Source of the DNA: Candidatus Coproplasma sp.
Lineage (GTDB): Bacteria > Bacillota > Clostridia > Christensenellales > Borkfalkiaceae
Assembly: GCA_051884115.1 (NCBI GenBank)
Contig: JBJEVA010000098.1
Span: 26,975 to 90,974, forward strand
Reading direction: 5' to 3'
Length of the DNA: 64,000 nucleotides
In this document: positions 28,959 to 42,058 of the stretch, piece after piece
Numbering within the stretch: position 1 is the stretch's first letter
Layout of the letters: each line of letters begins with the position of its first letter
Position numbers and translations under genes: made by a program
Notes under the pieces: generated by a model
What the model was told of the DNA's origin: nothing
The model's input: only the letters and a program-made list of their open reading frames with translations
Database searches by the model: none

Positions 28959-29023
28959 AAGATAGTTTATGCTTTTGGGGTAAGGAATATTAAATTATAT
29001 GGTAAAGGCATACTAAAACCGCA

Positions 29024-29053
29024 CGGCTTAATCGCCGTGCGGTCTTTGTTGTT
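29024..29053 (-). terminator. Rho-independent terminator after the 860-aa surface protein gene
   Basis: Minus strand ACCGCACGGC-GATTA-GCCGTGCGGT followed by TTTTAG. Confidence 0.7.
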
Positions 29054-29067
29054 GGTTGTGGGGTATA

Positions 29068-31650
29068 TTAGTAACCTAATACTAACGTTACGTTTCCTGC
29101 AATTTCTTTTGTGTCTGCATTTACTTCAGAGTCACCATGGAATTTTATATCACGTTTATTACTATCCTTACCCAACCAATTTATTTCTTTTACATAAATG
29201 TTATATGTTACTTTATCTGTAGTAATAGTAAGTACTTTGTCAGTTATAGTAAACGTTACATTACCTTCATAAATATCAATTGTTGATACTTTTGTAACAC
29301 CACCGACAACATTTCCGCTTACTTTTTCGCCCAATATTTGGACACTATCTTTTTCAATGAAAACCCTATTCGTATCGGTACCACCTCTATTAAGACTTAC
29401 AGTCATCGTAAACTTTGTTCTCGTATAGACGATTAAGTTGTCGGTGGTAAGTGAAGAAACTTCATTCCAACTGTTGTCGTACCACTTGCCGTCTATACTA
29501 TCGGAAACAGGAGCAGAAGGAGCTGAACCTGAAGTGTTGACGCTTGCGGTAAACGCGGTGCTAACCTTGCTGTGACCCCAGATGACATACAACGTAACAT
29601 TTTTATTTGCGATATCATTGCCATCACCAAATTCAAGTGCTTCACCATTTTTAGAAGCGAAGCCAAGGAATACATAGTTATCAGCTGAAGGTTTCAAAAG
29701 ACCTGCATTGAAGTCATCAAGGTCAACAACAACTGGGGTTATATTTCCTTTCTTAACCGTAGTTCCATAATAGCTAAACGCAACTTCGCTATAGACGTCT
29801 ATAACTTTTGCAACAGAATAGCTTACCGAATATGTCACGTGTGTATAGTTGTTTGCGTCAGTGTCCAATTTTGGTGTAAACACGCACTTATAGTTGATGC
29901 CGTTTTCATTTATGTCATACTTCGCAAAATCTACCGCAAGATTTGCCTCTATTGTTTCATCGATTGCAAACGTTGTCGTAGTTAAAACGGGATAGTACTT
30001 TGCAAGTATTTCATTGGCAACTTCTTCCGTAAGAGTGCTATCCGTTACACCATTTAAGTTAACAACTGCTTTTGCTCTTGCGTAATCCCAACCGCTTGAA
30101 ACGAGAGTGCCATCGCCGTTCTTACCTATTACATATCCTGTTGAACCGTTACGACGAACTTGACCCCAGTTCTCTACGCCAATTATTGTATGGTAGTAAA
30201 CGGTTATTCTGGTTTTATTGTTAGTAGATGATGTTGTACAACCGTAGAAAGGAACTGTCTTAGTGTCACCTGCCTCACCAAGCAATGTTACGCTTTGTGC
30301 AAGGAATACCGTGCTTTTAATATTGAAGTTATCGAGGAACGCCATTTCTCCTATAGTTTCGATATTTTCGGGAACTACTATGTTCTTTATTGAGGTTTCA
30401 GTAGTACCTGTTACAACCTCGCCATTTTCATTAAGTACATAATTCGCCAATGCCTTTTCACCAATTTCGGTTACGGGATAGCCATCTATTTCATTTTCAA
30501 GGACTAAGGTATTTGCTTCGTTGTTATAAGCGTATTTAGTATAGAAATCGTGGGTTAAGTCAACCGTCTTACCGCATACAACGAAGTGATATCCGCTTGC
30601 GTCGCTGTTAGCGGTTAACTGATAATATACGCCGTTTTCATCGGCAACTTTCTCTAAATCACCGCATCTGCTACAAATATGGTTTACATAGTTATGACCG
30701 AGAGCTTCGACCGTTTGTTGCGCAACGAGGATTTCGCCACACTCCGAACAGTGCTTTCCTTCGGTTAAGCCCGTTTTAGTACAGGTGGCTGAAACTGCAT
30801 CGTCAATCACTTCGGTGTGACCGAGAGCATTAACCGTTTGCTGTGCAACGAGAGTTTTACCGCAGACCGAGCAATGCGAACCTTGGGTTAAACCCTCCTC
30901 GGTACAGTTAGGCGCAACCGCTTCGTCCGTAACTACGGTATGAGGCAGAGCTTCGATTTTGCCGTCGCCTAACTTCCAAGCCTCGAGGTCGGAAATTTCG
31001 GTTTCGCCTACGCTATCCGCGAAAAATTTAGTACAACCCTCGTCGGTACATTTATAGTAGCTATTCCAACCGTCTGCCGAACAGGTTGCGCTTTGACCTT
31101 CAACCGCTTCAAGCGTATGCTTTTCGGCAAGTATTACGTTAGCGCTACCGTTAAGTTGGGTTGACGAAGGAAGCTCTACTATTACAAAGTAGGGATTAGA
31201 GAACATATTTTCATCTAAGCCGAGGTCGGTTACGTTTAGGGTGCTATCTCCGCTTGTAAGAGAACTATAGACAACGTTAGAAAGTCCGCTTTGGTTATTA
31301 CCCGTAAAGTACTCGCCCACGCCGAATTTATATCCGATATTGAAATCGGGAATAATTGAATTTTCGGTTGAAATAAGGTCGCCCAAGTCTATTACCGAGA
31401 GATAGAGAGTATAATTGCCATCGTTAGAAGCGATGCTTATCGTGCTTGATACATCGACTTCACGGCCAAACACGTTGATTTTGCTGTACGAAGCTTTTCC
31501 ATCAGCAAACGCGGTAAGACGATACGTACCGTTAAAGTCGCCGTGGTCGTTTGATTTTGTGCTGAACACAACGGCGCAAATGCCGAGGGCAACAGCCATA
31601 AGCGCTGTTACTACCGTTATAATAATTGATTTCTTTGCTTTGAATTTCAT
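29068..31650 (-). CDS. Large N-terminally anchored surface protein: Cys4 modules, BspA-type LRR segment, and a C-terminal module shared with the giant neighbour
   Basis: 860 aa. N-terminus MKFKAKKSIIITVVTALMAVALGICAVV. Contains 2x41-aa HT..D.AV...CT..GLT.G.HCS.CG modules and an LRR_5-like segment (VLENEIDGYPVTEIGEKALAN...VVPENIETIGEMAFLD). The stretch YVFLGFASKNGE..NVTLYVIWG resembles the Listeria-Bacteroides repeat. No LPXTG, SLH or cell-wall-binding repeats were seen. Confidence 0.7.
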   Translation of the reverse strand: MKFKAKKSIIITVVTALMAVALGICAVVFSTKSNDHGDFNGTYRLTAFADGKASYSKINVFGREVDVSSTISIASNDGNYTLYLSVIDLGDLISTENSIIPDFNIGYKFGVGEYFTGNNQSGLSNVVYSSLTSGDSTLNVTDLGLDENMFSNPYFVIVELPSSTQLNGSANVILAEKHTLEAVEGQSATCSADGWNSYYKCTDEGCTKFFADSVGETEISDLEAWKLGDGKIEALPHTVVTDEAVAPNCTEEGLTQGSHCSVCGKTLVAQQTVNALGHTEVIDDAVSATCTKTGLTEGKHCSECGEILVAQQTVEALGHNYVNHICSRCGDLEKVADENGVYYQLTANSDASGYHFVVCGKTVDLTHDFYTKYAYNNEANTLVLENEIDGYPVTEIGEKALANYVLNENGEVVTGTTETSIKNIVVPENIETIGEMAFLDNFNIKSTVFLAQSVTLLGEAGDTKTVPFYGCTTSSTNNKTRITVYYHTIIGVENWGQVRRNGSTGYVIGKNGDGTLVSSGWDYARAKAVVNLNGVTDSTLTEEVANEILAKYYPVLTTTTFAIDETIEANLAVDFAKYDINENGINYKCVFTPKLDTDANNYTHVTYSVSYSVAKVIDVYSEVAFSYYGTTVKKGNITPVVVDLDDFNAGLLKPSADNYVFLGFASKNGEALEFGDGNDIANKNVTLYVIWGHSKVSTAFTASVNTSGSAPSAPVSDSIDGKWYDNSWNEVSSLTTDNLIVYTRTKFTMTVSLNRGGTDTNRVFIEKDSVQILGEKVSGNVVGGVTKVSTIDIYEGNVTFTITDKVLTITTDKVTYNIYVKEINWLGKDSNKRDIKFHGDSEVNADTKEIAGNVTLVLGY
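30694..30939 (-). repeat. Two tandem 123-bp (41-aa) Cys-containing modules inside the 860-aa gene
   Basis: Period markers GTGACCGAGAGC / ATGACCGAGAGC / ATGAGGCAGAGC lie at 30817, 30694 and 30940, exactly 123 nt apart. Confidence 0.75.
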
Positions 31651-31694
31651 AATTGTTGCCTTATTTTTGTTTGTTTTTTTAACCTTTAATAATT

Positions 31695-31844
31695 TTAAAC
31701 GTTAATGTTGAAGTAGCCTTTTAAGCTGTTGACGTCGTAGATGTTATCGGTTGCGAAAGGACTGCTTACTTGAGTAATGACGTCCTTTTCGTCAAAACGA
31801 ATCGCCTCGATTTGGGGCATCTCGAATTTCTTTTTTGCCTTCAT
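31695..31844 (-). CDS. 49-aa micro-ORF between the two large surface genes
   Basis: My own translation gives MKAKKKFEMPQIEAIRFDEKDVITQVSSPFATDNIYDVNSLKGYFNINV. It has a strong SD (AAGGAGA, 4 nt spacer), is co-oriented with both neighbours, and has no Cys. Confidence 0.45.
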   Translation of the reverse strand: MKAKKKFEMPQIEAIRFDEKDVITQVSSPFATDNIYDVNSLKGYFNINV

Positions 31845-31887
31845 AATTCTCCTTATAAAATATCTTTGTTTTAATTTCTTATTTTGC

Positions 31888-31924
31888 GCCGTACGGCTTT
31901 TTTCTTAGCCGTACGGACTTTTTT
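31888..31924. other. Hairpin between the giant gene stop and the micro-ORF
   Basis: GCCGTACGGC (31888-31897) pairs with CCGTACGG (31909-31916) across an 11-nt loop. The T6 run at 31919-31924 follows on the plus strand only. Confidence 0.5.
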
Positions 31925-31930
31925 ATTTGA

Positions 31931-34900
31931 TTAGTAGCTAAACGTCAAGGTCATATTTCCGCTGACCGTCTGAACTCCTGTTATGCTTGAAGAGATAACG
32001 CGTTGTATTCCCTTATCGCTACCTGTTACTTCTGCATCGTTTACGAATACGGTATAGGTTATATTTCCCGTTACGATTGTAAGCTTATTGTTGTTAAGCG
32101 TAAACGTTGCTTCACCTTCGTATAACAAAATGCTCGTTACGTTAGCCGTTCCGCCGATAACGTTACCGTTAATTCTGTACGTCTTTTCGTTTGCACCGTT
32201 TTCTAAGATGTGAACGATATTAGTGTCGGTACCGCCTCTCTTCAATTTAATTTGAAGCGAATACGTAGCCTTTTCAGCCCAAACAACTTTATAAACTTCT
32301 TCACCGTTTTCTTCTACGATATTCCAACTTGCAAAGTTGTGCGTATATTCGGTAGGGGTATCGAGAACGAGTTCTTCACCCGTTACGGGAATGGTTACCT
32401 TTGTTGCAGTGTTTGCAGGTATCTTAGTGCCGTAGTAGGTAAATTCGTATTCGCTATAAACGTTTATAATCTTTGCCAACGAATAGCTTACCGAATAGGT
32501 TACGTGGGTATAACCGCCTACCGTGCTTAACTCGGGGGTGAACACGCACTTGTAGGTTATGCCGTTTTTGGTCATATCGAACTGTGCAAAATCTACCGAA
32601 AGATTTGCCTCAATCGCTGTGCTGAGAGCAAACGTGCTGTCGCTTACCAAAGGATAATACTTTGAAAGAATTGTATTTACAGCATCTTCGGAAAGAGTGC
32701 TACCCACTACGCCGTTTAATTCGACGGTTGCGCTTGCCGTTACGTAGTCCCAACCGCTTGAATGGGTTGAACCGCCGTTTTCACCGATATAGAAGTTGAA
32801 GTTAATAAACTTGGATACGTACCTGAAATGCCTCCAATCGTCTCCGCTGGTGGTTACGATATTGTGGTAATATACGTTAAGATAGGTTACTTCGTTGCCG
32901 TTTTTACCGTTAACGTCATCCTCGGTACCGAGTACGGAACAGCCGTAGAAGGGCATTGACCTACCGCTCTTAGCTTCGCCGTGGAAGGTTACGGAATCGG
33001 CAAGGAATACAGCAAGTTCCATACCGATATTATCGAGGAACGCCCTTTCGCCTACCGTTACGATATTTTGAGGAACTACTACCCTCTTTATAGCGTGACC
33101 GTCTGTATTTGCCAACGCCTCTTTCGCGATTGCCGTTACGGGATAACCGCCGATTTCATTTTCAAGTACCAAGGTTGCAGGGTTAGAACCGTCGCAATAT
33201 TTTGCGTTAAAGCCTGCCGACCTGCCTACTACGGTATAGCTCATAGTGTCGGAGCTGAACGAATATTTAACGCAATTTATTGTCACTTCGCTGTTAACAA
33301 ACGTTCCGTAAATATCTATTGTTCCTGCCTCTTCGATTATCTCGTTTTCGCCTACCGCAGTACCGTCTGCATAGGTTACGGCGCCAATCGTCTCTAACCC
33401 CTTAACTTCGGTAGGAACCTTATCGCCGACAAACGAAGACAACGTGTATAACTGTTCGCCTGAGTGAACGATTACGCTGACCGCCGTACGCCTTACCGCA
33501 TAAACGGTCATATCGCTATTCATTACAAAACTCGTTTCTCCTACCGTGTCGGCAACCGTTGAATAGAGAAGTCTGAACTCCTTTGTATCGTCGGTATATG
33601 CAGGGGAATTATTGTCGTAGAGATATACCGTCGAGCCGTGACGGACAAGGCGGGTTTGCTTAGTGCCGTCAAGATTTACAATGGTAAGCGTATGCTGATA
33701 GAGCATATTTGAATAGTTGTAGCTTGCATCGTAATTTGAATTATCGCTGTTGTAGTAGAGATTAAAGCAACCGAACTTTTCGTCGTAACCGCTCGCCTCG
33801 TTCTTTACGAAGTGAGAGTAGTCAACTGTTATTCCCTGTGCTGAAATTATCTCGTTTGCCTTGTCGTACATTGAAGGCGCGACAACCCCCGAAGTGAGCG
33901 TATTGCCCATTACGTATTCGGTCGTTGCCCCCTCTTCATAGTTAAGGGTTGCAGAGAATTTTACGTAGGACTGAATGGCACCGCTCGCCTTTACTCCGCT
34001 TATTCCGTTATCGTCTCTAAGCAGTGCGCAATAGAGCTTTGTAAGCACGTCGCCCGTTACTTTGCCTGCGTTGAGCGCAAAGCCGTAGTAATTATCGGAT
34101 ATGCCGAACTCATTTTCAAGGGGTGATATATCGCCGAAAGACGCCGTTTCGGTGCCGTTGATTACTACGCGAAGGGCCTCTACAAAGTCGTACATCGAAA
34201 TTTCCTGTTCCTCTTTATCGGAGGTTACGTTATAGAGATATACGTCCTGAGGAGTAGTAAGTCCCGAGCTTACGTTTAAGTCGCCTGCGGTTGATTTGAT
34301 AATACTCATTACCGTATCCCAACCGCTGATGTTGAGCCACCACTTTAATACGCAGTCGTTGTCTGCCTTTACGAGCATATGGTCCATAAAGTAGTCCATA
34401 GTCATAATTCTGTATTCGGGCGTCGTGGTGTTAAGTCCCTTTGCAAGCGTTAAATATCCGCCGTGGAAGGATATGCCCACCGTGCTTTCGGGTATGGTTA
34501 CTAAGCCAAGCGCACTCATCTTCTTGACGTGTAAAAGTCCTGAGAAGTAGAAGTCGTTATCCGCCATAGAAACCGTAAGCGTCGATACGTCTATGTTGAT
34601 TGTGAACATGCTTACGATATTAGCCGTAATAGAACCGCTTAACGTGAACTTTTCATATACGTTGCCGTTATCGTCGGTTGCAAACTTGACTAAATCGCTG
34701 ATTAAATCGGGGAGGAATTCTATACTTACGTATTCCCCTCTGTCAAACGAAGAGTAATCTCTTCTCGGCGTCTTTGCCGACGAGAGCGAAAGCCAAGTCT
34801 TTAACGACTCTACGCCGTCTTTATCGATAACCTTTGCCTGTGCATTGGTTGTCATCGAGTGGTCGTTATGGTTAATTACCGCTTTAATATTGCCCAAATC

Positions 34901-37900
34901 GCCTGAATAGGTTATGCCGAGCTGACCTAACAAATTGTTAAGGTCGATATCCGTAGTAACTACGCCGTCAACCTCTGTAGAGATAACAGCCTCGCTGAAG
35001 TTGAAGTTTATGAGCTTTTCAAGTAAGGAGGCAAGCGACGTAGTCTGTGCGTCGGTTGTGTTTTCAGCCGTTTCGGGGTTTATTACAACTTCGCCCTCGG
35101 TTGAAGTTTGAGAGTTAGAGCTGTCCGTACCCATAAGTCCGCCCAACATATCCATTACGTTGGTATTGTTTATTGCCGAAACAAGTACCTTAAAGGTATC
35201 GAATAAACTATCCTGTGTTGCATAAACCTTGAAGTCGGGAAGCTTAATATCCGCTACCTGATTTAAGTTTATGAAGAAACGTTGCTGTCCGCTTTGATAT
35301 TCTGTTATAACGTGGAGGTTGATTATTACACCGCCTGCGTTTATGTTCAAAAGACCTTCCGCAAGCTTTCCGTTAAACTCGTCTTTTTCACCCGTTATGT
35401 ATAGTTCTGCGTTGACATAGACGCCTGCAAGCTCTGTAATGTTGCAGTTATCGCCACTCAGCTCGAACACTACCGAATAGGTGTCTGAACCGAGAATGTT
35501 TTCTACAGAAATACAATCTAATGCTTCAAACAGATAATCGTAGGCAAGTTTAATAAATGCAGTGTCGCCGTCCTTTGAAGAGGACATTTTGATATTTTCA
35601 CCGTCGAACTCTGCTTGGAGTGCGGAGATAAGACTTCCGCCTACCGCATAGACTTTAACGTCTCCGCCGAGAGAGAATCTTTCACCGAACGCTCCGTCGT
35701 ATTCGAGCGAGAGATTTCCGTCAGTTCCTATTTTTACGTTTGCGCAATTATCCGAAAGATAGGAGAGTAAGAGCGAAGTTCCGTCGCAGGTTGCGGAGAA
35801 GTTATTTAAGAACTCTACCCAATCGTCCTTGGCAAGTACGCCGAACACGAGCGTTAGCAATTCGTCGGTTGAAATTAAGGTCGTTGAGTTGGCTACGTCG
35901 GTTACCGTTGCGTTATCGGTCGGCGTTGTGCTGTCGGGCTGAGCAGGCTCGGCGGAAATGGGTGCCATTCCGAGTGCGGAAGCCACTTTATTATATATTT
36001 CGATAAAGCCGTTCTTTACGCCGTCTATATCCGACTTATAGATATCTAAACCGATACCGTTGAGCGCAAGTCTTACCATAGGGGTATCGACTGCGTTTTT
36101 GTTGTAATAGAGCTTTAAGGTCGTTACGTCCGTACCCGTTTCGGATATTGACATTCCGAGGTCGAGCGCAACGTATTCTTCACCGCTCTTCCAGCTTATT
36201 TCGCCCTCGCCCCAGACGTAGATTAAAATACCGTCGAGCGAGAGATAGGAGCCGTGGCTACCGCCGTTTTGCGCCTCGTCAATCACAAAGGTTATCTTTT
36301 GACCGTCCTTGATTGCGTTTATCTGCGACATTGCCGAGTTAACCGTATTCAAGAGGTCTGAGAGTTCAAAGCAACCCGTCATTATATCGGCAGGCGTTTG
36401 AGTTGAAATATCCGTGGGATTGAGCGTTAACGCTAAGCCGAGCGAAGGGAGATTTGCCGAAAGAAGGTCGCCCTCTTCGTTTTGCGCAAGATGCTTATAT
36501 GTAAGCGTAAGCTCGCCCAACGCCATACCTGTATTTAAGCCTAATACGTTGAGTAAGTTATCGACGTCAACGCCGAGGTTGAGCGTATTAGAAGTTGTGC
36601 TAAGCTGAGGAATAAGCGCGTTGATATCTGCCGTTAAGAGATTGGAAAGTATGTTGGATACGGCTGAAACGCTTTCATTATTCTGCTCCGCCGAAGCATC
36701 GGACGCAAGAGTTTCAGTCTTGGGCGTTACGTACTCTATTAAAGTTTTAACGCCTGTAACGACCTCGTCTATATTACAGCCAACCTTTACGCAAACTTCC
36801 GTATTATTTATTCTATCGAGGAGCAACACTACCTTACCGCTATCCATCGAACTGCCCTGATAGCGGATAATTATGTGTGCCGAAATCCTTTCACTATTAT
36901 ATATAAACGACAGAGTTGCATCGAGCTGAACTGCCAGAGCCTTGGTACTGTCTGTTATGGAAGCCATTGCGTCGGCAAAGTCGAAGTAAGCGTTTGCCTC
37001 TACCTTTATTCCCTTTAACGCCTCTACGTTGAGCGCGTCGCCGTCGAAGGTTATTCCCAGAACAAGTTTGTTGGCTTCGAGTACTTTGTTGACGTCTGCA
37101 AGTACGTCTGCAAGGTTTAATGCGTTGTCTAAAGTTAACTCTTCGAGTTGTTCGTTGTAGGGGTTAAGCGTTACGCCTATACCGAAAGAAGGTACGGTTG
37201 CAGATAGTAAGTTTTCACCGTTGTGTTCGTATGTAAGCGATACGTTACCGATTGTCATTCCTGCGTTTACATTGAGAAGTTTTAACGCCTCATCGACGTT
37301 TACTTCGAGGTTGAGCAGGTTTTCGCCTGCGCTGATATCGGTTAAAATTGTGTTGATATCTGCGGTTAAGAGGTTTGCAAGAATTGCGTTAAGGTCGATT
37401 GCGTTGCCGTTCGCACTCTCCGTTGCCTCTGTACTTTCCGCCGAGCCGAAATAGCCGAGTAACGTATTTACGCCGTCGATTACTTCGTTTACGTTGCAAT
37501 AGAGCTTAACGTTCCTCTCCGCTCCGCAGAGTGAATCGAGAGAGAGTATTACTCTTCCGTATGTATTTGCATCGTAAACGTAATAAGCGGTAATTGTTGC
37601 CGTTATGTTTTCATAACTTACGGTTGCCGTTACTTGGGCGGTTATACCGCTATTGAGGTCCGCATAGACTGTTGCCGTTGCGCAAAGTCCGTCCATACCG
37701 AGGCTTGCACCGTCGAAGGTTAATGCAACTGCCAATTTCTTAGCTTCAATTATGCTGTTAACGTCTGCAAGTACGTCTGCAAGGTTTAATGCGTTTTCGC
37801 AAGTTAACTCTTCGAGTTGTTCGTTGTAGGGGTTAAGCATTACGCCTACGCCGAAAGAAGGTACGCTTACGGATAGAACGTTCTCGCCGTTGTGGTTGTA

Positions 37901-40798
37901 GCCGAGCGATACGTTACCGATTGTCATTCCTGCATTTACATTGAGAAGATTGAGAACTTCATCGACGTTAACGGTTATATTTGCAGATACGCTGTCCGCG
38001 TTGAGTTCGGGAATAAGCGCATTTAAATCTGCTGATAAAAGGTTTGCGATTATTGTGTTTAAATCTATTGCATTTGCAGTCGCAGTTCCCTCAGACGTCG
38101 CCACAGTCGCACTGTTGCCGAAGTACGTAAGTAACGTGTTTACACCGTCGATTACTTCGTTTACGTTGCAATAGAGCTTAACGTTCCTCTCCACTCCGCA
38201 GAGTGAATCGAGAGAGAGTATTACTGTTCCGTATGTATTCGCATCGTACAAGTAATAAGCGGTAATTGTTGCCGTTATATTTTCGTACTCTACGTTTGCC
38301 GTAACCTGTGCCGTTAAGCCGTTTTTAACGTTGAGGTAGGCGACGGCATTTGCTTTAAGAGAGGCAAGGTAGGGTATGCTTACCGCCGTGAAGTTTGCAC
38401 CGTCAAAGGTTATTCCTACGGCGATATAATTTGCATTTATAAATTTATTTAAATCTTCGAGTATTAAATCGAGGTCGAGGTATTCGTCTTTATCAGGCTC
38501 TGTAAGCTGACCTTCGTCGTCGGCTCCGCTTACGTTTAGCGCAAAGCCGATTGCAGGCAGGGTGACGGAGAGATTACCGCCGTTTGCACCGCCCCTTTTA
38601 TAGCTGAGTGCGCAAGAACCGAATTTTACGCCTGCGTCTATATTGAACATATCCAAAAGCGTATCGATGCTTACGGCAATCTTTATCTCTGCTCCGTCCG
38701 CGTACATTTCGGTCAAAAGCGAAGAGAAGTCGGCAGAGAGAACGCCTGAAATAATATCGGCAAGCCCTGCGGTGTTTAAACCCGTTTTAGCACTGCCCAT
38801 ATTGAGGAGCGACTGCACTCCTTCGGCAAGCTGTGCTATATCGCACTTAACCTTTAAATCTAACGCAGTGCCGTTAAAGCTGTTAAGGCTGAGGTATGCA
38901 TTGCCGTATTTGCCCGACTGAGCGTTAATCTCGTAGAACACGCTTAAAGATGCGGTTAAATCGTTTCCCTTATAGTTATAATAAACGGTGGCGTCTGCTC
39001 CGAGAGATATGCCGTCTAAATTTGCATATGCCGTAACTTCTGCCTTAACGTCTTTTAGCGCAGAAATGCAAACGCCGTCCGCCGTACCGTCTATAACGGC
39101 GCGAACCTTTATGACGTCGGAGGAAAGTAGCGAATGTACGTCTGCAATATAGTCGGCAAGGTTTGCCTCGTTTTGCATAGGCTGACGGGAGATTTCTTCC
39201 GCTGTGGTCGTCTTTAAGGCAAGGCTTAATGCCGAGCCGTTATCCTTCGATGAAAGCCCCTCCACCTTTACACCGCGGATAGCTATGGTATTTCCGCTTA
39301 TGCCGAATATCATATCGACCTTGAAGTCGATACCGAGACCCAATTTATCCTTTCCGCTTGCGTCGAGGGAATTATCTAATGTTATGACCGCCTGTTTCTC
39401 ACCGGAGGTGAGTACCATTGAGTTCATTATGGTTTCGAGCAATCCGTCGAGAGAAGAGTTGCCCTCTGCGGTGTTTTCCGAAGAAGCCCCTCCCTCTTCG
39501 GGGTTATTTGCATTTGCCGAAGAGATTGCGTTATTTATTTTATCAATCAAATCGCCGAACTCACCTACAGCAAGCTTAACCTCTGCCATGTTTGCGCCGA
39601 GAGCAAAGCTTTCTCCGTAATAACAAGAGAGTCCGTTTTGACCGTATTCAACGTAGAAGTCCTGATTTTCGAGGGTCTGCCCTAAGCTTAATTTTAAACG
39701 TATGCTGTTTGCAATATCGGCTAAATCGAGGGAGAGATAGATATAACCTACGTAGGTGTTTTTGCCGAGTTTTGCAGAAATTTCAAACTGCTGTCCGCCG
39801 TCCATTATCTGCGAGAAGCCGTTAGAGAGGATATTGGTTACGTCCATTACGAGTTCTTCGTCGGACGAACCGCCCTGATTGAGATTGTCGTCGCCTATAT
39901 ATTTAGAATAATAATCTTCATAGTAAGCGAAATGCTCTTCGTCAAAATGGTCTTCGCCGTAGTAATATACAACGTTAAATTTGGATACCGATTTTAAAAC
40001 GATACCCTTGTTTATATCCGAAACTTCGTCAACGGAACAGGAATTTATCTGCCAATTTTTATCGAAGTTTACGGTAATTTCTATGTTTTTGAAGTTGGGG
40101 AAGTCCGAAAGTCCGCCCCTCGTCTTCATACCGAACTGATAGTAGAAGGTCGAAGTGTTAGGGTTGAGAACAAAGGACAGAGTATATGTTCCGTCGCTTT
40201 CGCAAACAATCTCTTCGGAAGAAACTATCGTCTCCTCGTTTACAAGGTAATTGAAAAGCTCGGTAGGGAGAAGTCCGTAGGTGTAAAGATAGGAATGTTC
40301 TGTAAAGAGAGTGGGCGCGTCGGTACTCCATTTCGCCGTAGTGGGAACGGTGTCCGCACTCGGCGTCGCACTCGTACGGAAGTAAACAGAACCCTCCTTT
40401 GTTCCGTCCTCCTTTTGGTCAAAAACGGTACAAGTCTGCGTACCGCCCTTTACCATAGACGAGAAGGTTAAGTCGGTTGTGATTAAAACTCCGTCCTTAT
40501 AGTCACGCCAAGTATTCGTACTCTGGTTTGCTATTGCCGCCGACGTTATACCCCTCGATTCCGTATGGTACTGCGTCTGGCTGTCGAATTTAGCTACTAT
40601 ATAAGCGAGGTTTTCCGCACAGGTATAAGCCGTAGGAAGACTGCCGTCCGTGGGAGGAGTCTGCCTTGCGGTGTATGCGTTTTCCGGAGCAGTCATATCG
40701 ACCGATTTGGGCATACAGCCCGCAACGCCCGTTGCCGTGCTTCCGATAAACAATGCGGATATTATCGCTGTTATTGTTTTCTTAAAAACTGATTTCAT
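31931..40798 (-). CDS. Giant (2,955 aa) predicted lipoprotein with ~223-aa tandem modules and an LRR-containing C-terminal module
   Basis: Single uninterrupted ORF. The start was moved to the ATG at 40798 (MKSVFKKTITAIISALFIGSTATGVAGC), which gives a signal peptide with a VAGC lipobox. No catalytic or known anchoring domain was recognised. Confidence 0.75.
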   Translation of the reverse strand: MKSVFKKTITAIISALFIGSTATGVAGCMPKSVDMTAPENAYTARQTPPTDGSLPTAYTCAENLAYIVAKFDSQTQYHTESRGITSAAIANQSTNTWRDYKDGVLITTDLTFSSMVKGGTQTCTVFDQKEDGTKEGSVYFRTSATPSADTVPTTAKWSTDAPTLFTEHSYLYTYGLLPTELFNYLVNEETIVSSEEIVCESDGTYTLSFVLNPNTSTFYYQFGMKTRGGLSDFPNFKNIEITVNFDKNWQINSCSVDEVSDINKGIVLKSVSKFNVVYYYGEDHFDEEHFAYYEDYYSKYIGDDNLNQGGSSDEELVMDVTNILSNGFSQIMDGGQQFEISAKLGKNTYVGYIYLSLDLADIANSIRLKLSLGQTLENQDFYVEYGQNGLSCYYGESFALGANMAEVKLAVGEFGDLIDKINNAISSANANNPEEGGASSENTAEGNSSLDGLLETIMNSMVLTSGEKQAVITLDNSLDASGKDKLGLGIDFKVDMIFGISGNTIAIRGVKVEGLSSKDNGSALSLALKTTTAEEISRQPMQNEANLADYIADVHSLLSSDVIKVRAVIDGTADGVCISALKDVKAEVTAYANLDGISLGADATVYYNYKGNDLTASLSVFYEINAQSGKYGNAYLSLNSFNGTALDLKVKCDIAQLAEGVQSLLNMGSAKTGLNTAGLADIISGVLSADFSSLLTEMYADGAEIKIAVSIDTLLDMFNIDAGVKFGSCALSYKRGGANGGNLSVTLPAIGFALNVSGADDEGQLTEPDKDEYLDLDLILEDLNKFINANYIAVGITFDGANFTAVSIPYLASLKANAVAYLNVKNGLTAQVTANVEYENITATITAYYLYDANTYGTVILSLDSLCGVERNVKLYCNVNEVIDGVNTLLTYFGNSATVATSEGTATANAIDLNTIIANLLSADLNALIPELNADSVSANITVNVDEVLNLLNVNAGMTIGNVSLGYNHNGENVLSVSVPSFGVGVMLNPYNEQLEELTCENALNLADVLADVNSIIEAKKLAVALTFDGASLGMDGLCATATVYADLNSGITAQVTATVSYENITATITAYYVYDANTYGRVILSLDSLCGAERNVKLYCNVNEVIDGVNTLLGYFGSAESTEATESANGNAIDLNAILANLLTADINTILTDISAGENLLNLEVNVDEALKLLNVNAGMTIGNVSLTYEHNGENLLSATVPSFGIGVTLNPYNEQLEELTLDNALNLADVLADVNKVLEANKLVLGITFDGDALNVEALKGIKVEANAYFDFADAMASITDSTKALAVQLDATLSFIYNSERISAHIIIRYQGSSMDSGKVVLLLDRINNTEVCVKVGCNIDEVVTGVKTLIEYVTPKTETLASDASAEQNNESVSAVSNILSNLLTADINALIPQLSTTSNTLNLGVDVDNLLNVLGLNTGMALGELTLTYKHLAQNEEGDLLSANLPSLGLALTLNPTDISTQTPADIMTGCFELSDLLNTVNSAMSQINAIKDGQKITFVIDEAQNGGSHGSYLSLDGILIYVWGEGEISWKSGEEYVALDLGMSISETGTDVTTLKLYYNKNAVDTPMVRLALNGIGLDIYKSDIDGVKNGFIEIYNKVASALGMAPISAEPAQPDSTTPTDNATVTDVANSTTLISTDELLTLVFGVLAKDDWVEFLNNFSATCDGTSLLLSYLSDNCANVKIGTDGNLSLEYDGAFGERFSLGGDVKVYAVGGSLISALQAEFDGENIKMSSSKDGDTAFIKLAYDYLFEALDCISVENILGSDTYSVVFELSGDNCNITELAGVYVNAELYITGEKDEFNGKLAEGLLNINAGGVIINLHVITEYQSGQQRFFINLNQVADIKLPDFKVYATQDSLFDTFKVLVSAINNTNVMDMLGGLMGTDSSNSQTSTEGEVVINPETAENTTDAQTTSLASLLEKLINFNFSEAVISTEVDGVVTTDIDLNNLLGQLGITYSGDLGNIKAVINHNDHSMTTNAQAKVIDKDGVESLKTWLSLSSAKTPRRDYSSFDRGEYVSIEFLPDLISDLVKFATDDNGNVYEKFTLSGSITANIVSMFTINIDVSTLTVSMADNDFYFSGLLHVKKMSALGLVTIPESTVGISFHGGYLTLAKGLNTTTPEYRIMTMDYFMDHMLVKADNDCVLKWWLNISGWDTVMSIIKSTAGDLNVSSGLTTPQDVYLYNVTSDKEEQEISMYDFVEALRVVINGTETASFGDISPLENEFGISDNYYGFALNAGKVTGDVLTKLYCALLRDDNGISGVKASGAIQSYVKFSATLNYEEGATTEYVMGNTLTSGVVAPSMYDKANEIISAQGITVDYSHFVKNEASGYDEKFGCFNLYYNSDNSNYDASYNYSNMLYQHTLTIVNLDGTKQTRLVRHGSTVYLYDNNSPAYTDDTKEFRLLYSTVADTVGETSFVMNSDMTVYAVRRTAVSVIVHSGEQLYTLSSFVGDKVPTEVKGLETIGAVTYADGTAVGENEIIEEAGTIDIYGTFVNSEVTINCVKYSFSSDTMSYTVVGRSAGFNAKYCDGSNPATLVLENEIGGYPVTAIAKEALANTDGHAIKRVVVPQNIVTVGERAFLDNIGMELAVFLADSVTFHGEAKSGRSMPFYGCSVLGTEDDVNGKNGNEVTYLNVYYHNIVTTSGDDWRHFRYVSKFINFNFYIGENGGSTHSSGWDYVTASATVELNGVVGSTLSEDAVNTILSKYYPLVSDSTFALSTAIEANLSVDFAQFDMTKNGITYKCVFTPELSTVGGYTHVTYSVSYSLAKIINVYSEYEFTYYGTKIPANTATKVTIPVTGEELVLDTPTEYTHNFASWNIVEENGEEVYKVVWAEKATYSLQIKLKRGGTDTNIVHILENGANEKTYRINGNVIGGTANVTSILLYEGEATFTLNNNKLTIVTGNITYTVFVNDAEVTGSDKGIQRVISSSITGVQTVSGNMTLTFSY
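35700..39170 (-). repeat. Array of at least 5 tandem ~223-250-aa protein modules inside the giant gene (approximate limits)
   Basis: Module starts recur with the pattern (A)LNLADVLADVN / ANLADYIADVH / LDLILEDLNKF / FELSDLLNTVN near 39165, 38480, 37795, 37125 and 36375. Confidence 0.7.
37092..38432 (-). repeat. Two adjacent, highly similar DNA copies (period 669-672 bp) within the module array
   Basis: ACGTCTGCAAGTACGTCTGCAAGGTTTAATGCGTT occurs at 37092 and 37761. A run of over 100 nt, near-identical, begins TACTTCGTTTACGTTGCAATAGAGCTTAACGTTCCTCTCC at 37481 and 38153. Confidence 0.8.
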
Positions 40799-41144
40799 AT
40801 TTTTTTCTCTTATTTGCTCACTGATAGAAATCCTTAACGCGTCATAGACCACGTTAGAGACATTTTTGACTGTTTAACGCTTAAAACCTACGATTTTAAA
40901 TAATCAGACGGTAAAATAAACTAATTCATACCCCTATTTTAAGCGGTTCAGTAAAAAAGTACAAATTTAACATTATCTATTATAACGCCAAATTTCTAAG
41001 AAGTCAACGAAATTAAAAATATTGTCATAAAATATTATTACTATTTATGTATTTATTTTACAAAAAACGATAGAAAACAACAAAAAAGACTCTTAACTAT
41101 ATTATATAATAAATTCAAAAACAAACGGAGAGTCAATTTGTCAT

Positions 41145-41876
41145 ATGACAGACTATATTTACCTTTGCGGTGCAAGCGGAGGTGCGGGGGTGACAACCTG
41201 TGCATTCCGCATAGGACTTGCCCTTGCAAGAAAGGGCGAGCGCACACTTGTTGTTGACGGCGACAGCGACTGCGCCTCCGGACTTTCGATAGCGCAAATA
41301 CCCGATTTTAACTTCTATACCCTTGCCGACGCAAGGTCGGGTGCGTGCCGAGTTAAGCAGGCGGTAATCCCCCACCCCCTTTCACCCAACCTCTACTTCC
41401 TCCCAACTCTTGAATGTTACGACGCGAAATTTATCGAAGAGTGCATTAAGCACTGCGGACAGCTCTTCGACAGGGTTATTTGCGACAATACCGCGATAGG
41501 CGTTTGCGGGCGCGCCGTGGTGGTCTGCGACCCTTACCGCACGTCCTTAGAGAGGACAAAAAAAACCGCATCCCTTTTAAAGGACGGCGGTTTGAAAAAC
41601 ACGGGTTTAATTGTAAACAAAGTTAACGGCGGTCTGGTGTTCGACGGAGCCATTTTGACTCCGCAGGAATTTTCATCCGTGACGAGGTGTTCTCTATGGG
41701 GAGTTATCCCCGAGGATTTAACCCTACCCTTGGGCAGAGCTAAAAAGCAGACCGTTAAAGCTTTTTCCATGACGGCTGACTTTATTATCGGAAACAGTCA
41801 AAAGACCTTTGGAGTATTAAAGCCCTACCTCGGATTGAAGGGAATGATTAAACGCAAAATGAGGGATTGGATATGA
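41145..41876 (+). CDS. MinD/ParA-fold protein with both P-loop lysines replaced and a C-terminal amphipathic helix
   Basis: It aligns with MinD along its length (VVDGD, NLYFLPT, IVNKV, WGVIPED), but ASGGAGVTT replaces GKGGVGKTT. The C-terminus is GLKGMIKRKMRDWI. Confidence 0.7.
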   Translation: MTDYIYLCGASGGAGVTTCAFRIGLALARKGERTLVVDGDSDCASGLSIAQIPDFNFYTLADARSGACRVKQAVIPHPLSPNLYFLPTLECYDAKFIEECIKHCGQLFDRVICDNTAIGVCGRAVVVCDPYRTSLERTKKTASLLKDGGLKNTGLIVNKVNGGLVFDGAILTPQEFSSVTRCSLWGVIPEDLTLPLGRAKKQTVKAFSMTADFIIGNSQKTFGVLKPYLGLKGMIKRKMRDWI

Positions 41877-42058
41877 TTTTACAGCAAATGACCGACAGCG
41901 AAAAGGAGCTGTTTATTGAAGATTTGAAAAGCGTATGCTCTGAATACTTCGAGGGCGACGGCAAGTACTCTGTTGACGTAGTATCCTTAGAAAAAGGGCT
42001 TTCCGTATGCGTAGTGTTCGACGCCGTAAGGGTTAGGAATTTCCGCAAACCAACTTAG
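41873..42058 (+). CDS. Short MinE-like ORF (61 aa), C-terminal topological-specificity-like region only
   Basis: ATGA overlap with the upstream stop, with GAGG 8 nt upstream. ELFIEDLKSVCSEYFEGDGKYSVDVV...VVFDAVRVRNFRK resembles the MinE C-terminal half. The similarity is weak. Confidence 0.4.
   Translation: MILQQMTDSEKELFIEDLKSVCSEYFEGDGKYSVDVVSLEKGLSVCVVFDAVRVRNFRKPT

What the first reader, a model, noticed from the sequence alone, without database searches (positions are those of the whole stretch)
29068..40852. Accessory island: 2,955-aa lipoprotein, a 49-aa micro-ORF and an 860-aa paralogue in one co-oriented unit, with no recognisable wall anchor or catalytic domain
What the sequence shows: three co-directional minus-strand ORFs lie between housekeeping blocks. 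They are bounded by a 290-bp AT-rich upstream region (40853-41144) and a clean terminator (29024-29053). The first protein has a signal peptide with a VAGC lipobox. It continues with an N-terminal domain I cannot place, at least 5 tandem ~223-aa modules, and a ~900-aa beta-rich central region. It ends with a BspA-type LRR segment and a C-terminal module. The third protein has an uncleaved-looking N-terminal anchor, Cys4 modules and the same LRR/C-terminal module. What is inferred: neither protein carries LPXTG, SLH, choline-binding/CWB2 or S-layer motifs, so they would be held by a lipid anchor and a TM anchor respectively. That is unusual for multi-thousand-residue Firmicute surface proteins. 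The amphipathic, strand-rich pattern of the modules could equally fit a fibre/adhesin stalk or an elongated groove-type protein; I cannot tell which from sequence. This is the best candidate in the window for an undescribed surface system.
Basis: partly seen in the sequence, partly recalled or inferred. Interest (0 to 1): 0.8.

Follow-up and report, generated by a model that had tools for sequence, protein, structure and literature searches.

The report
Giant membrane-anchored surface stalk protein family
A 2,955-residue lipoprotein of an uncultured gut Clostridium belongs to a large, unnamed family of membrane-tethered giants built from an undescribed ~220-residue repeat, and it is most likely a stalk that carries a leucine-rich-repeat binding head through the cell wall: a new family, but a familiar kind of job.

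Summary
All three minus-strand ORFs are real: A (2,955 aa, 31931-40798), a 49-aa micro-ORF (31695-31844) and B (860 aa, 29068-31650). The source is a Candidatus Coproplasma MAG. A is not an accessory island. In 44 of 51 species-level genomes it sits at the same chromosomal site (MinD/ParA-like | giant | yabP-yqfD), behind a conserved sigma-A-type promoter. A deep profile search finds 1,126 cluster representatives, 1,200-6,215 aa long, none with a name or a Pfam domain. All start with a lipobox or a TM anchor. A conserved N-domain follows, then a variable number of ~220-aa modules and a variable tail of beta-grasp/Flg_new repeats, a BspA-type LRR and a C-module. AF2 models (pLDDT 73-80) show helix plus beta-meander units. 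Their best Foldseek matches are LprG/LolA-type half-barrels (TM 0.3-0.44), not AsmA/VPS13 grooves. The micro-ORF is a genuine gene under purifying selection. It always precedes a B-type gene, and the pair is optional. My best reading (about 0.55) is an inverted-polarity fibrillar adhesin, with a membrane anchor, a wall-spanning stalk and a distal LRR head. It is a new variant of a known kind. Binding targets, the micro-protein's role and any lipid binding remain untested.

The parts
40979..41007 (-). Sigma-A-type promoter of the giant gene (TTGACT-17-TATAAT)
   Evidence: Matches 11 of 12 consensus positions. An equivalent TTGACA-17-TATAAT lies upstream of the orthologue in L001, L002, L006 and L008. 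It is a consensus match conserved across loci. Its activity was not tested.
31931..40798 (-). Gene A: 2,955-aa giant lipoprotein (MGN0805135.1), 315 kDa mature, pI 4.25
   Evidence: Member of a family with 1,126 cluster representatives.
40715..40798 (-). Signal peptide with lipobox VAGC (Cys28)
   Evidence: Read directly from the sequence. The lipobox is conserved in the close family. In the wider family, 105 of 182 members have a lipobox and the rest have an N-terminal TM helix.
39950..40627 (-). N1: membrane-proximal conserved domain (A residues ~58-283)
   Evidence: Present in 183 of 185 family members. The motif PxDGSxP...N..Y is invariant. AF2 pLDDT is about 90. It is a candidate for the region behind the LprG Foldseek match, although the matched query residues are not reported.
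39200..39847 (-). N2: probable divergent module (A residues ~318-533)
   Evidence: It has the same order of secondary-structure elements as the modules. hhalign against the modules gives 37-49% probability, colinear over 139 columns.
34763..39199 (-). Array of homologous ~220-aa modules (A residues ~534-2012: five tandem modules plus the more divergent module C1)
   Evidence: Self-BLAST. hhalign probability 97-100% among M1, M2 and M3, for M3 vs M5 and for M1-M3 vs C1; M1/M2 vs M5 72-88%, M5 vs C1 not detected. DSSP of the AF2 models shows a helix, 6 strands, 2-3 helices, 2 strands, a helix and 3 strands per unit. Copy number varies among orthologues.
33929..34720 (-). C2: conserved single-copy domain at the distal end of the stalk (A residues ~2027-2290)
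   Evidence: Present once in 143 of 185 members. Not related to the modules by sequence. pLDDT is about 80-90.
33215..33877 (-). Beta-grasp (ubiquitin-like / InlB B-repeat-like) segment (A residues ~2308-2528)
   Evidence: Foldseek matches di-ubiquitin-like folds and the InlB B-repeat with probability 0.97-0.98. Assignment of those matches to this segment is my inference from the DSSP string. Present in 81 of 185 members.
32300..33211 (-). BspA-type LRR plus a following Flg_new-like segment (A residues 2530-2833), shared with B
   Evidence: Profile against PDB sequences hits 4gt6 (8e-7), 4fs7 and TpLRR 6mlx. 46% identical to B residues 369-670. Present in 94 of 185 members.
31934..32272 (-). 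C-terminal module (A residues 2843-2955), shared with B
   Evidence: 32% identical to B residues 744-860. Found in only 24 of 185 members. No LPXTG-like signal.
31889..31916 (-). GC-rich hairpin after the stop codon of A, with no U-tract on the coding strand
   Evidence: In loci that lack B, the equivalent hairpin is followed by a T-run. In loci that have B, it is not. Read-through into the micro-ORF and B is therefore plausible.
31695..31844 (-). Micro-ORF C: 49-aa conserved small protein (MGN0805134.1) with an AAGGAG Shine-Dalgarno sequence
   Evidence: Copies that are 47-65% identical lie directly 5' of B-type genes in L008, L009 and L010. The family has 7 clusters. pN is 0.19-0.33 while synonymous sites are saturated, and dN/dS is 0.14-0.23 where it can be computed.
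29068..31650 (-). Gene B: 860-aa paralogue (MGN0805133.1). N-terminal hydrophobic signal or anchor, N-domain (31120-31539), three Cys4 repeats (30658-31119), LRR head (29641-30546), C-module (29071-29421)
29018..29043 (-). Intrinsic terminator closing the unit (10-bp stem with 8 GC pairs, then TTTTA on the coding strand)
   Evidence: The same hairpin follows B in L008 and L010.

Best explanation
A is a giant cell-surface protein tethered to the membrane at its N-terminus. It has the logic of a fibrillar adhesin with inverted polarity.

Proposed mechanism:
1. Sec export and lipidation at Cys28 fix the N-terminus in the outer leaflet of the cytoplasmic membrane. This is predicted and conserved, not demonstrated.
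2. A conserved base (N1, N2) sits next to the membrane.
3. At least 6-7 homologous ~220-aa alpha/beta modules plus C2 form a semi-rigid stalk tens of nanometres long. The stalk would cross the peptidoglycan. This is inferred.
4. The distal tail (beta-grasp/Flg_new-like repeats, a BspA-type LRR and a C-module) acts as the ligand-binding head. This is inferred from what such domains do elsewhere.

A is transcribed from its own strong vegetative-type promoter. It is a vertically inherited core gene of Coproplasma/Borkfalkia-type gut Clostridia.

B shows the same head on a short Cys4-repeat stalk. It arrived as an optional two-gene cassette with the 49-aa protein C. The cassette is probably expressed by read-through of the hairpin after A, which lacks a U-tract. 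The role of C is unknown. My guess is a cytoplasmic helper or a translational-coupling partner for B.
For: Anchor:
- The lipobox is conserved in close members.
- Across 182 full-length members the N-terminus is always a lipobox (105) or a TM helix.
- No C-terminal sorting signal or wall-binding domain is present.

Conserved base, variable tail:
- N1 is in 183 of 185 members and C2 in 143. The LRR is in 94, the beta-grasp segment in 81 and the C-module in 24.
- Distant members carry Flg_new in the tail and no enzyme or toxin domains.

Stalk behaviour:
- The modules are homologous tandem units.
- Syntenic orthologues of 2,177, 2,450, 2,691 and 2,955 aa have 4, 5, 6 and at least 7 modules. The family reaches 6,215 aa with up to 17 matched stretches.
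- pTM of 0.46 and 0.60 for 1,200-aa models suggests defined packing between modules.

Head:
- The LRR matches BspA-type LRR_5 surface proteins.
- Foldseek gives an InlB B-repeat/beta-grasp match.
- The same head is reused on B.

Other support:
- Extracellular-type composition, with pI 4.25 and high Thr/Ser/Asn content.
- Conserved sigma-A-type promoter.
- PMC8286594 notes that about half of fibrillar-adhesin-like proteins have no known anchor. It also notes that some Firmicute proteins without a sortase motif carry adhesive domains at the C-terminus.
- Repeat-number variation in stalks is the hallmark of Periscope proteins (PMC9704523).
Against: - No binding, localisation or expression data exist. 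All hosts are uncultured MAGs.
- The module fold is not one of the known rod-forming stalk domains. I could not inspect the model coordinates, so an elongated shape is inferred and not seen.
- The best structural neighbours of parts of the models are lipid-binding half-barrels (LprG, LolA). These are not typical stalk material.
- The most conserved part is the membrane-proximal N1 domain. That could mean the key function lies at the membrane and not at the tip.
- The LRR segment is short, and half of the family lacks it.
- The repeats are diverged (at most 79% DNA identity). This differs from the near-identical repeats of true Periscope proteins.
Confidence: 0.55

Rival explanations
1. Lipid or lipoglycan relay. 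The N1 domain and the modules are LolA/LprG-type half-barrels with hydrophobic cavities. Chained together, they would pass acylated molecules (glycolipids, lipoteichoic-acid anchors, lipoproteins, host lipids) between the membrane and the cell surface, or a bound partner cell.
For: - The top Foldseek matches of model 1 are M. tuberculosis LprG (probability 1.0, TM 0.40-0.44, about 245 columns). Other hits are SAOUHSC_02783 (probability 0.9) and, weakly, ApoB100, LBP and LptD.
- Model 2 matches P. aeruginosa LolA with probability 0.90.
- The count of about 11 strands and 3-4 helices per unit equals the LolA count.
- LprG binds acyl chains in a hydrophobic pocket (PMC4214796).
- The membrane-proximal N1 domain is the most conserved part.
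Against: - TM-scores are below 0.5, and there is no sequence-level relationship to the LolA or LppX_LprAFG families.
- No transporter partner is conserved next to the gene, unlike LprG-Rv1410.
- LolA-like folds in Firmicutes can have roles unrelated to lipids. One example is GerS, which activates an amidase (10.1101/2025.01.13.632879).
- The organism appears monoderm and spore-forming, so there is no second membrane to supply.
- The variable LRR/Flg_new tails fit adhesion better.
Confidence: 0.12
2. Envelope scaffold or S-layer-like coat. A is an abundant structural protein that organises or covers the wall. The LRR/Flg_new tail would mediate self-association or wall-polymer binding rather than adhesion to foreign targets.
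For: - One copy sits at a fixed site in at least 44 species-level genomes.
- It has a near-consensus conserved promoter with a ~180-nt leader.
- The pI is acidic.
- It is the only such gene in the window.
Against: - No SLH, CWB2 or other S-layer anchoring modules are present.
- 315 kDa with variable module number is atypical for lattice-forming proteins.
- The distal domains are variable, whereas a lattice needs conserved contacts.
Confidence: 0.15
3. Sporulation-associated protein (forespore or spore surface), suggested by its position immediately upstream of yabP-yqfD.
For: A is adjacent to yabP-yqfD in all syntenic loci.
Against: - A terminator and a separate promoter-like element of sporulation-sigma type lie between the unit and yabP.
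- A's own promoter is sigma-A-type.
- Distant family members lie elsewhere, next to unrelated genes.
Confidence: 0.03
4. Polymorphic toxin or effector-delivery protein, with a conserved trafficking region, repeats and a variable C-terminal effector. The micro-ORF would be an immunity or helper protein.
For: The C-terminal region is variable on a conserved N-terminal scaffold. A small conserved ORF lies next to B.
Against: - No toxin, nuclease, peptidase or pre-toxin domains appear in any member scanned.
- There are no PADLOC or PHROG hits.
- The micro-ORF lies upstream of B, not after a toxin tip, and is absent where only A is present.
- The tails are LRR/Flg_new repeats.
Confidence: 0.02

Closest known systems
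Fibrillar adhesins / Periscope proteins of Gram-positive bacteria (e.g. SasG, Aap, Rib/Alpha C, SraP; PMC8286594, PMC9704523)
   Same: Very long single-chain surface proteins. A tandem-repeat stalk projects a binding domain. Repeat number differs between orthologues. There is no catalytic domain.
   Different: - Polarity is inverted: an N-terminal lipid or TM anchor and a C-terminal head, instead of a C-terminal LPXTG anchor and an N-terminal head.
- The stalk unit is an undescribed ~220-aa alpha/beta module, not an Ig-like, Rib, G5-E or SHIRT domain.
- The repeats are diverged (at most 79% DNA identity), so rapid expansion and contraction by recombination is unlikely.
BspA-type LRR (Pfam LRR_5) and Listeria-Bacteroides repeat (Flg_new) surface proteins, internalin-like
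   Same: The tail contains an LRR_5-type segment (profile E = 8e-7 to PDB 4gt6). It also contains beta-grasp/B-repeat-like units, as in InlB. These are typical binding modules of gut anaerobes.
   Different: Only a short LRR stretch is present. About 85% of the protein (base plus stalk) has no counterpart in those proteins. The Pfam LRR_5 and Flg_new models do not reach their cut-offs on A itself.
LolA / LolB / LprG-LppX lipid-carrier half-barrels
   Same: Best structural neighbours of parts of the AF2 models. Similar count of strands and helices. LprG is also an N-terminally lipidated envelope protein.
   Different: TM-scores are only 0.3-0.44 and there is no sequence relationship. Those proteins are single ~200-aa domains, often with a transporter partner. 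Here up to a dozen units are chained, with no conserved partner. Lipid binding is untested.
Bridge-like lipid-transfer proteins with repeating beta-groove (AsmA/TamB/YhdP, VPS13/ATG2)
   Same: Giant, beta-rich, repetitive and membrane-anchored at one end.
   Different: No Foldseek match appears in the 50 hits listed per PDB search. No AsmA, DUF490 or Chorein Pfam signal is found. Each unit contains 3-4 helices. The far end carries adhesin-type repeats and not a second membrane-binding element.
GerS of Clostridioides difficile (LolA-like lipoprotein, 10.1101/2025.01.13.632879)
   Same: A Firmicute lipoprotein with a LolA-like fold and no sequence similarity to LolA.
   Different: GerS is small, has a single domain and acts as an allosteric activator of an amidase. 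It is used here only as a caution that a LolA-like fold does not imply lipid transport.

Membership tests
Bacterial lipoproteins (Lgt/Lsp substrates) | Positively charged n-region, hydrophobic h-region and a lipobox [LVI][ASTVI][GAS]C within the first ~15-35 residues | tested here: met
   MKSVFKKTITAIISALFIGSTATGVAGC, with Cys at position 28. The Cys is conserved at the equivalent position in nearly all close homologues.
Bacterial lipoproteins (Lgt/Lsp substrates) | Actual diacylglyceryl modification and signal peptidase II cleavage | not testable with these tools
   Needs globomycin sensitivity, mass spectrometry or lgt/lsp genetics. The organism is uncultured.
Fibrillar adhesins (Monzon et al., PMC8286594) | Cell-surface anchoring | tested here: met
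   A predicted N-terminal lipid or TM anchor occurs throughout the family. None of the usual wall anchors is present.
Fibrillar adhesins (Monzon et al., PMC8286594) | Stalk made of tandem repeated domains forming an elongated rod | tested here: inconclusive
   Tandem homologous modules with variable copy number are shown. The rod shape could not be checked because no model coordinates were available. The module is not a known stalk domain.
Fibrillar adhesins (Monzon et al., PMC8286594) | Adhesive domain at the end distal from the anchor | tested here: inconclusive
   LRR_5-type and beta-grasp/Flg_new-like domains lie at the distal C-terminus. Binding activity is untested.
Sortase-anchored (LPXTG) surface proteins | C-terminal LPXTG-like motif followed by a hydrophobic stretch and a charged tail | tested here: not met
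   No such motif occurs in the last 120 residues of A or B. There is no Gram_pos_anchor hit.
S-layer / CWB2 / choline-binding wall-associated proteins | SLH, CWB2 or choline-binding repeats | tested here: not met
   No Pfam or NCBIfam hits at E <= 1.
BspA-type LRR proteins (Pfam LRR_5) | LRR_5 repeats recognised by the family model | tested here: inconclusive
   Pfam LRR_5 gives only E = 0.0099 (16 bits against a cut-off of 27.7) on B and is not reported on A. The family profile does hit PDB LRR_5 proteins 4gt6 (8e-7), 4fs7 (1.5e-5) and TpLRR (8e-4).
LolA / LppX-LprAFG lipid-carrier superfamily | Unclosed beta-barrel of ~11 antiparallel strands with helices lining or plugging the cavity | tested here: inconclusive
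   Foldseek gives probability 1.0 to LprG but TM 0.40-0.44 and rmsd of about 10 A. LolA gives probability 0.90 and TM 0.32. The secondary-structure count is compatible.
LolA / LppX-LprAFG lipid-carrier superfamily | Sequence membership (Pfam LolA, LppX_LprAFG and related models) | tested here: not met
   No hit at E <= 1. The family profile finds no LolA or LprG sequence in PDB at E <= 10.
LolA / LppX-LprAFG lipid-carrier superfamily | Open hydrophobic cavity that binds acyl chains | not testable with these tools
This needs cavity analysis and lipid-binding assays.
Bridge-like lipid-transfer proteins (AsmA-like / VPS13-like repeating beta-groove) | Repeating beta-groove units forming one continuous hydrophobic groove, plus family signatures (AsmA, DUF490/TamB, Chorein_N) | tested here: not met
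   No such Pfam hits. No AsmA, TamB, VPS13 or ATG2 structures appear in the 50 hits listed for either PDB Foldseek search. Each unit contains several helices.

The most novel reading that the evidence does not exclude
The chain of about ten LolA/LprG-like half-barrels is a wall-spanning hydrophobic relay in a monoderm bacterium. The lipid-anchored N1 domain would pick up acylated molecules at the membrane. The modules would hand them along the stalk. The LRR head would dock the far end onto a partner (host mucus, a host cell or another bacterium). This would be a Gram-positive, extracellular counterpart of bridge-like lipid transport, evolved from a different fold.
Probability: 0.08. Interest if true: 0.9.

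Novelty: new variant of a known kind. Interest (0 to 1): 0.5.

Why it matters
This defines a large protein family with no annotation at all. It has 1,126 cluster representatives at 50% identity, members up to 6,215 aa, and no Pfam, NCBIfam or PDB relatives for about 85% of each protein. The family appears to be a core surface feature of Coproplasma/Borkfalkia/Christensenellales-type gut Clostridia, none of which has been cultured.

It supplies a new ~220-aa repeat module and two new conserved domains (N1 and C2) that deserve family models. It documents a way to display a giant adhesin-like protein on a Firmicute without sortase, SLH or CWB2, using an N-terminal lipid or TM anchor with the head at the C-terminus. 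That speaks to the roughly half of fibrillar-adhesin-like proteins with no known anchor noted in PMC8286594.

It also flags a conserved 49-aa protein of unknown role coupled to a short paralogue. If the LolA/LprG resemblance reflects real lipid binding, the significance would be much greater.

Tried and rejected
1. Curated libraries. Pfam, NCBIfam, PHROGs and PADLOC scans of A, B and C gave nothing above cut-off.
2. PDB sequence searches. The single-sequence search of A found nothing. The family-profile search found only the LRR.
3. Rfam and tRNA scans of the window found nothing.
4. Assembly artefact. Rejected because TRF finds no near-identical tandem DNA, the best module pair is 79% identical, and independent assemblies carry full-length homologues. 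One related assembly (L008) does have an N-gap inside its module array.
5. Mobile or accessory island. Rejected on GC content, synteny and the absence of plasmid or phage matches.
6. Conserved operon partners. None was found. Distant members sit in unrelated contexts. The MinD/ParA-like neighbour belongs to a generally syntenic region, with no specific functional assignment.
7. Micro-ORF as a RiPP or lasso precursor. The FxxPxI motif loosely recalls the YxxPxL leader motif. There is no suitable core peptide and no maturase nearby, so I rejected this.
8. The 1,821-aa protein next to the B-like gene in L009 is unrelated to A and B.
9. The BFVD viral fold search added nothing beyond local LRR and beta-grasp hits.
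10. Literature searches for Coproplasma, giant proteins in Christensenellales and tandem LolA-like surface proteins found no description of this family.

Full report
OBSERVATION. The ORF scan lists three co-directional minus-strand ORFs at the stated coordinates: 31931-40852 (from an upstream GTG), 31695-31844 and 29068-31650. Translation shows that the first has an in-frame ATG at 40798. This gives MKSVFKKTITAIISALFIGSTATGVAGC..., a classical signal peptide with a lipobox and Cys28. That 2,955-aa form, the 49-aa ORF and the 860-aa ORF are exactly the NCBI proteins MGN0805135.1, MGN0805134.1 and MGN0805133.1. All three are named 'hypothetical protein' and come from a Candidatus Coproplasma sp. 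MAG on a 120.6-kb contig. Coproplasma is an uncultured Clostridia genus.

Self-comparison confirms tandem ~223-aa repeats between residues ~534 and ~1524. B residues 369-670 and 744-860 are paralogous to A residues 2530-2833 (46% identity) and 2843-2955 (32%). Pfam and NCBIfam give no hit above cut-off for any of the three. The only sub-threshold hint is LRR_5/HupY-type LRR in B. No LPXTG-like C-terminus exists. PHROGs and PADLOC are empty.

NOT AN ARTEFACT, NOT AN ISLAND. The best DNA repeat between modules is 79% identical over 614 nt, and TRF finds nothing. Repeat collapse or expansion in this assembly is therefore unlikely. Full-length relatives occur in many independent assemblies.

GC content across A (0.44-0.465) is like the flanks. 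The flanks are the conserved Firmicute yabP-yqfD-phoH-(7TM-HD)-ybeY-era-recO-PPDK cluster on one side. A divergent MinD/ParA-like ATPase and an S41 peptidase lie on the other side.

In three related genomes the giant gene lies at exactly this position (L001, L002, L006). A scan of one genome per GTDB species found 51 species-level genomes with the gene. All are uncultured Clostridia labelled Coproplasma, Borkfalkia/Borkfalkiaceae or Christensenella(ceae). In 44 of them the same MinD/ParA-like gene (36-58% identical) lies divergently just upstream. Four of the seven exceptions simply lack upstream sequence. Nothing similar is on any plasmid or phage record. A is therefore a vertically inherited core gene of this lineage, not accessory DNA. 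More distant family members (24-27% identity, or the 5,000-6,000-aa giants) lie in other contexts, with no partner shared across the family.

THE FAMILY. The word-indexed search with A residues 1-1550 found 67 clusters of 1,800-2,700-aa proteins. I then made a trimmed profile of the N-terminal 735 residues (alignment A3). Searched exhaustively against 1.84 billion representatives, it found 1,126 proteins at E <= 1e-3 and 407 at E <= 1e-30. Lengths run from 1,200 to 6,215 aa. The N-domain always starts within ~30-130 residues of the N-terminus, and there are up to 17 matched stretches per protein. None carries a source name other than 'hypothetical'. None has a Pfam domain apart from Flg_new (Listeria-Bacteroides repeat) in some tails.

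Of 182 full-length members, 105 have a lipobox and the others an N-terminal TM helix. An HMM survey of 185 members shows a conserved base and stalk. N1 is in 183, N2 in 145, modules occur in 1-12 detectable copies, and C2 is in 143 as a single copy. The tail is variable: the beta-grasp segment is in 81, the LRR in 94 and the C-module in 24. Among syntenic orthologues, lengths of 2,177, 2,450, 2,691 and 2,955 aa correspond to 4, 5, 6 and at least 7 modules.

ANATOMY OF A. Profile-profile comparison of family sub-alignments shows that the module array extends beyond the tandem repeats. M1, M2 and M3 match each other and M3 matches M5 at hhalign probability 98-100%. M1 and M2 match M5 less strongly (72-88%), and M5 against C1 gives no signal. 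N2 (318-533) is a marginal, colinear match at 37-49%. N1, C2 and the beta-grasp segment are distinct.

Two AF2 models were built on family alignments. The first covers residues 29-1228 (pLDDT 72.8, pTM 0.46, N1 about 90, modules about 80). The second covers residues 1441-2640 (pLDDT 79.9, pTM 0.60). DSSP shows each unit as a helix, about 6 antiparallel strands, 2-3 helices, 2 strands, a helix and 3 strands.

Foldseek against PDB gave the following. For model 1, the top hits are M. tuberculosis LprG (probability 1.0, TM 0.40-0.44 on the target, about 245 columns) and S. aureus SAOUHSC_02783 (probability 0.9). Only low-probability hits go to ApoB100, LBP and LptD. For model 2, the hits are P. 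aeruginosa LolA (probability 0.90, TM 0.32), di-ubiquitin-like/ISG15 folds and the InlB B-repeat (probability 0.97-0.98). No AsmA, TamB, VPS13 or ATG2 structure appeared in the 50 hits listed per search. The tool does not report which query residues matched, and I had no access to coordinates. I therefore treat 'LolA/LprG-like half-barrel' as a tentative fold assignment and could not examine cavities or overall shape.

At sequence-profile level, only the LRR region has PDB relatives: the BspA-type LRR_5 proteins 4gt6 (8e-7), 4fs7 and TpLRR. Mature A is 315 kDa with pI 4.25. It is rich in Thr, Ser, Asn and Asp and has no further TM segment.

TRANSCRIPTION UNIT. A near-consensus TTGACT-17-TATAAT lies at 41007-40979, about 180 nt upstream of the ATG. 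An equivalent TTGACA-17-TATAAT is present upstream of the orthologues in L001, L002, L006 and L008.

A GC-rich hairpin follows the stop codon of A (31889-31916) but has no U-tract on the coding strand. In genomes that lack B, the equivalent hairpin is followed by a T-run and is a canonical terminator. In the three genomes that have the micro-ORF and B, it is not. There the hairpin after B (window 29018-29043) carries the T-run instead.

Between that terminator and yabP, all loci share AATATT-14 nt-GCATAAACTA. To my knowledge this resembles a sigma-E-type sporulation promoter. That is a lead and not a test. It argues that yabP-yqfD is regulated separately.

B AND THE MICRO-ORF. B's three ~41-aa Cys4 repeats occur in more than 2,000 extracellular Clostridial proteins alongside dockerin, cohesin, SLH, LRR_5 and Big_2 domains. 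Proteins similar to B over most of its length are few and are Coproplasma-type.

Their contexts are informative:
- L010 has giant, then a 48-aa ORF, then B-like, then yabP.
- L008 has the same arrangement, with the micro-ORF unannotated.
- L009 has a 49-aa ORF and then B-like at an unrelated locus.

The micro-ORFs are 47-65% identical and share M-x-KK-x-F-x-x-P-x-IEVI-x-FD-x-KDVIT-x-S...SI-D/E-SIK-x-FFN-IKV. They form a family of only 7 clusters. They have a perfect AAGGAG Shine-Dalgarno sequence. Non-synonymous divergence is 0.19-0.33 against saturated synonymous sites, with dN/dS of 0.14-0.23 where computable. The micro-ORF is thus a real gene linked to B, not to A. It has no signal peptide, TM segment or Cys, and its role is unexplained.

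The N-terminal Cys of B is not conserved in B-type proteins. Their N-termini look like Sec signal peptides or signal anchors. B is therefore not a lipoprotein, and 'uncleaved anchor' cannot be decided.

INTERPRETATION. Shown:
- a conserved N-terminal membrane-anchor signal;
- a conserved membrane-proximal domain;
- a homologous tandem module array with variable copy number;
- a variable distal tail made of domains that elsewhere act as binding modules;
- no enzymatic or toxin domains;
- a conserved vegetative-type promoter;
- vertical inheritance.

Inferred: the modules form a semi-rigid stalk long enough to cross the wall. With ten units of roughly 4-5 nm each this would be tens of nanometres, which is my estimate. 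The LRR/beta-grasp tail would be an adhesive head.

This is the fibrillar-adhesin logic (PMC8286594, PMC9704523) with inverted polarity and a new stalk module. B displays the same head on a short stalk. I put this reading at about 0.55.

The main rivals are an envelope scaffold or S-layer-like role (0.15) and a lipid or lipoglycan relay built from LolA/LprG-like units (0.12). The relay is the most novel reading the data do not exclude. It is weakened by the modest TM-scores, by the lack of any partner transporter, and by the example of GerS. GerS is a LolA-like Firmicute lipoprotein with a non-lipid function (10.1101/2025.01.13.632879). Sporulation, toxin-delivery and artefact readings are unlikely, for the reasons given under the rival explanations.

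NOVELTY AND SCORE. No literature describes this family. It is a new, large, lineage-specific family with undescribed domains and an unusual anchoring polarity. Its most probable function is of a known kind. I rate it 'new variant of a known kind' with interest 0.5.

Noticed in passing
window ~28965-29000 (minus strand); also L002 17400-17446, L006 16575-16616, L008 12960-13047, L010 8060-8098: Between the terminator of the A/B unit and yabP, every locus shares AATATT-14 nt-GCATAAACTA. From my own knowledge this resembles a sigma-E-type sporulation promoter. It suggests that yabP-yqfD is regulated separately from the giant gene.
   Followed up: partly
window 31889-31916 and 29018-29043; L002, L006, L008, L010 equivalents: The hairpin after the giant gene has a T-run only in genomes that lack the micro-ORF and B cassette. 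Where the cassette is present, the T-run sits on the near-identical hairpin after B. It looks as if the cassette was inserted between the giant gene and its terminator, or as if the terminator was duplicated and the first copy decayed.
   Followed up: partly
L008 3880-3980: The orthologous giant gene appears split into 830-aa and 1,912-aa ORFs. The break is a 100-N scaffold gap inside the module array, so these repeats do break some short-read assemblies.
   Followed up: yes
window 41145-41876 (+) and 41867-42058 (+): An orphan MinD/ParA-like ATPase (best NCBIfam hit MinD, far below cut-off) is followed by an overlapping 63-aa ORF. The ATPase is conserved divergently upstream of the giant gene in 44 of 51 species genomes, and the small ORF follows it in every locus where called genes were listed (L001, L002, L006, L007, L008). 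I saw no evidence for a functional link beyond regional synteny.
   Followed up: partly
window 30658-31119 (B residues 178-331): A ~41-aa Cys4 repeat (H-x10-C-x3-G-x5-C-x2-CG...) recurs in more than 2,000 Clostridial extracellular proteins with dockerin, cohesin, SLH, LRR_5 and Big_2 domains. It is only weakly touched by Pfam EGF_LMN_ATRN, so it appears to be a widespread repeat without a model of its own.
   Followed up: partly
L062 5061-7807 and L063 4869-7742: The two largest family members examined (5,345 and 6,215 aa) both lie directly downstream of a cluster made of a TM1266-like gene, a ~340-aa protein, a BPD_transp_1 permease and an ABC ATPase. This could be shared ancestry of two related genomes or a functional link.
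   Followed up: no
L009 4861-9145 and 12874-18339: At the unrelated locus, the micro-ORF plus B-like pair lies downstream of a MarR gene and two ABC-exporter genes. It lies upstream of an unrelated 1,821-aa Ser/Thr-rich protein that has no Pfam domain and no obvious signal peptide.
   Followed up: partly
L002 3174-4548 and L006 2936-4310: A cluster of a STAS-domain gene, a 115-aa gene and a sigma-70-family gene (spoIIAA-spoIIAB-sigF-like) lies a few kb upstream in related genomes. This is consistent with the lineage forming spores.
   Followed up: no
window 44156-46228 (+): A 690-aa ORF has only weak Pfam hits to transmembrane regions and no NCBIfam hit. It is another uncharacterised membrane protein near the locus.
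   Followed up: no
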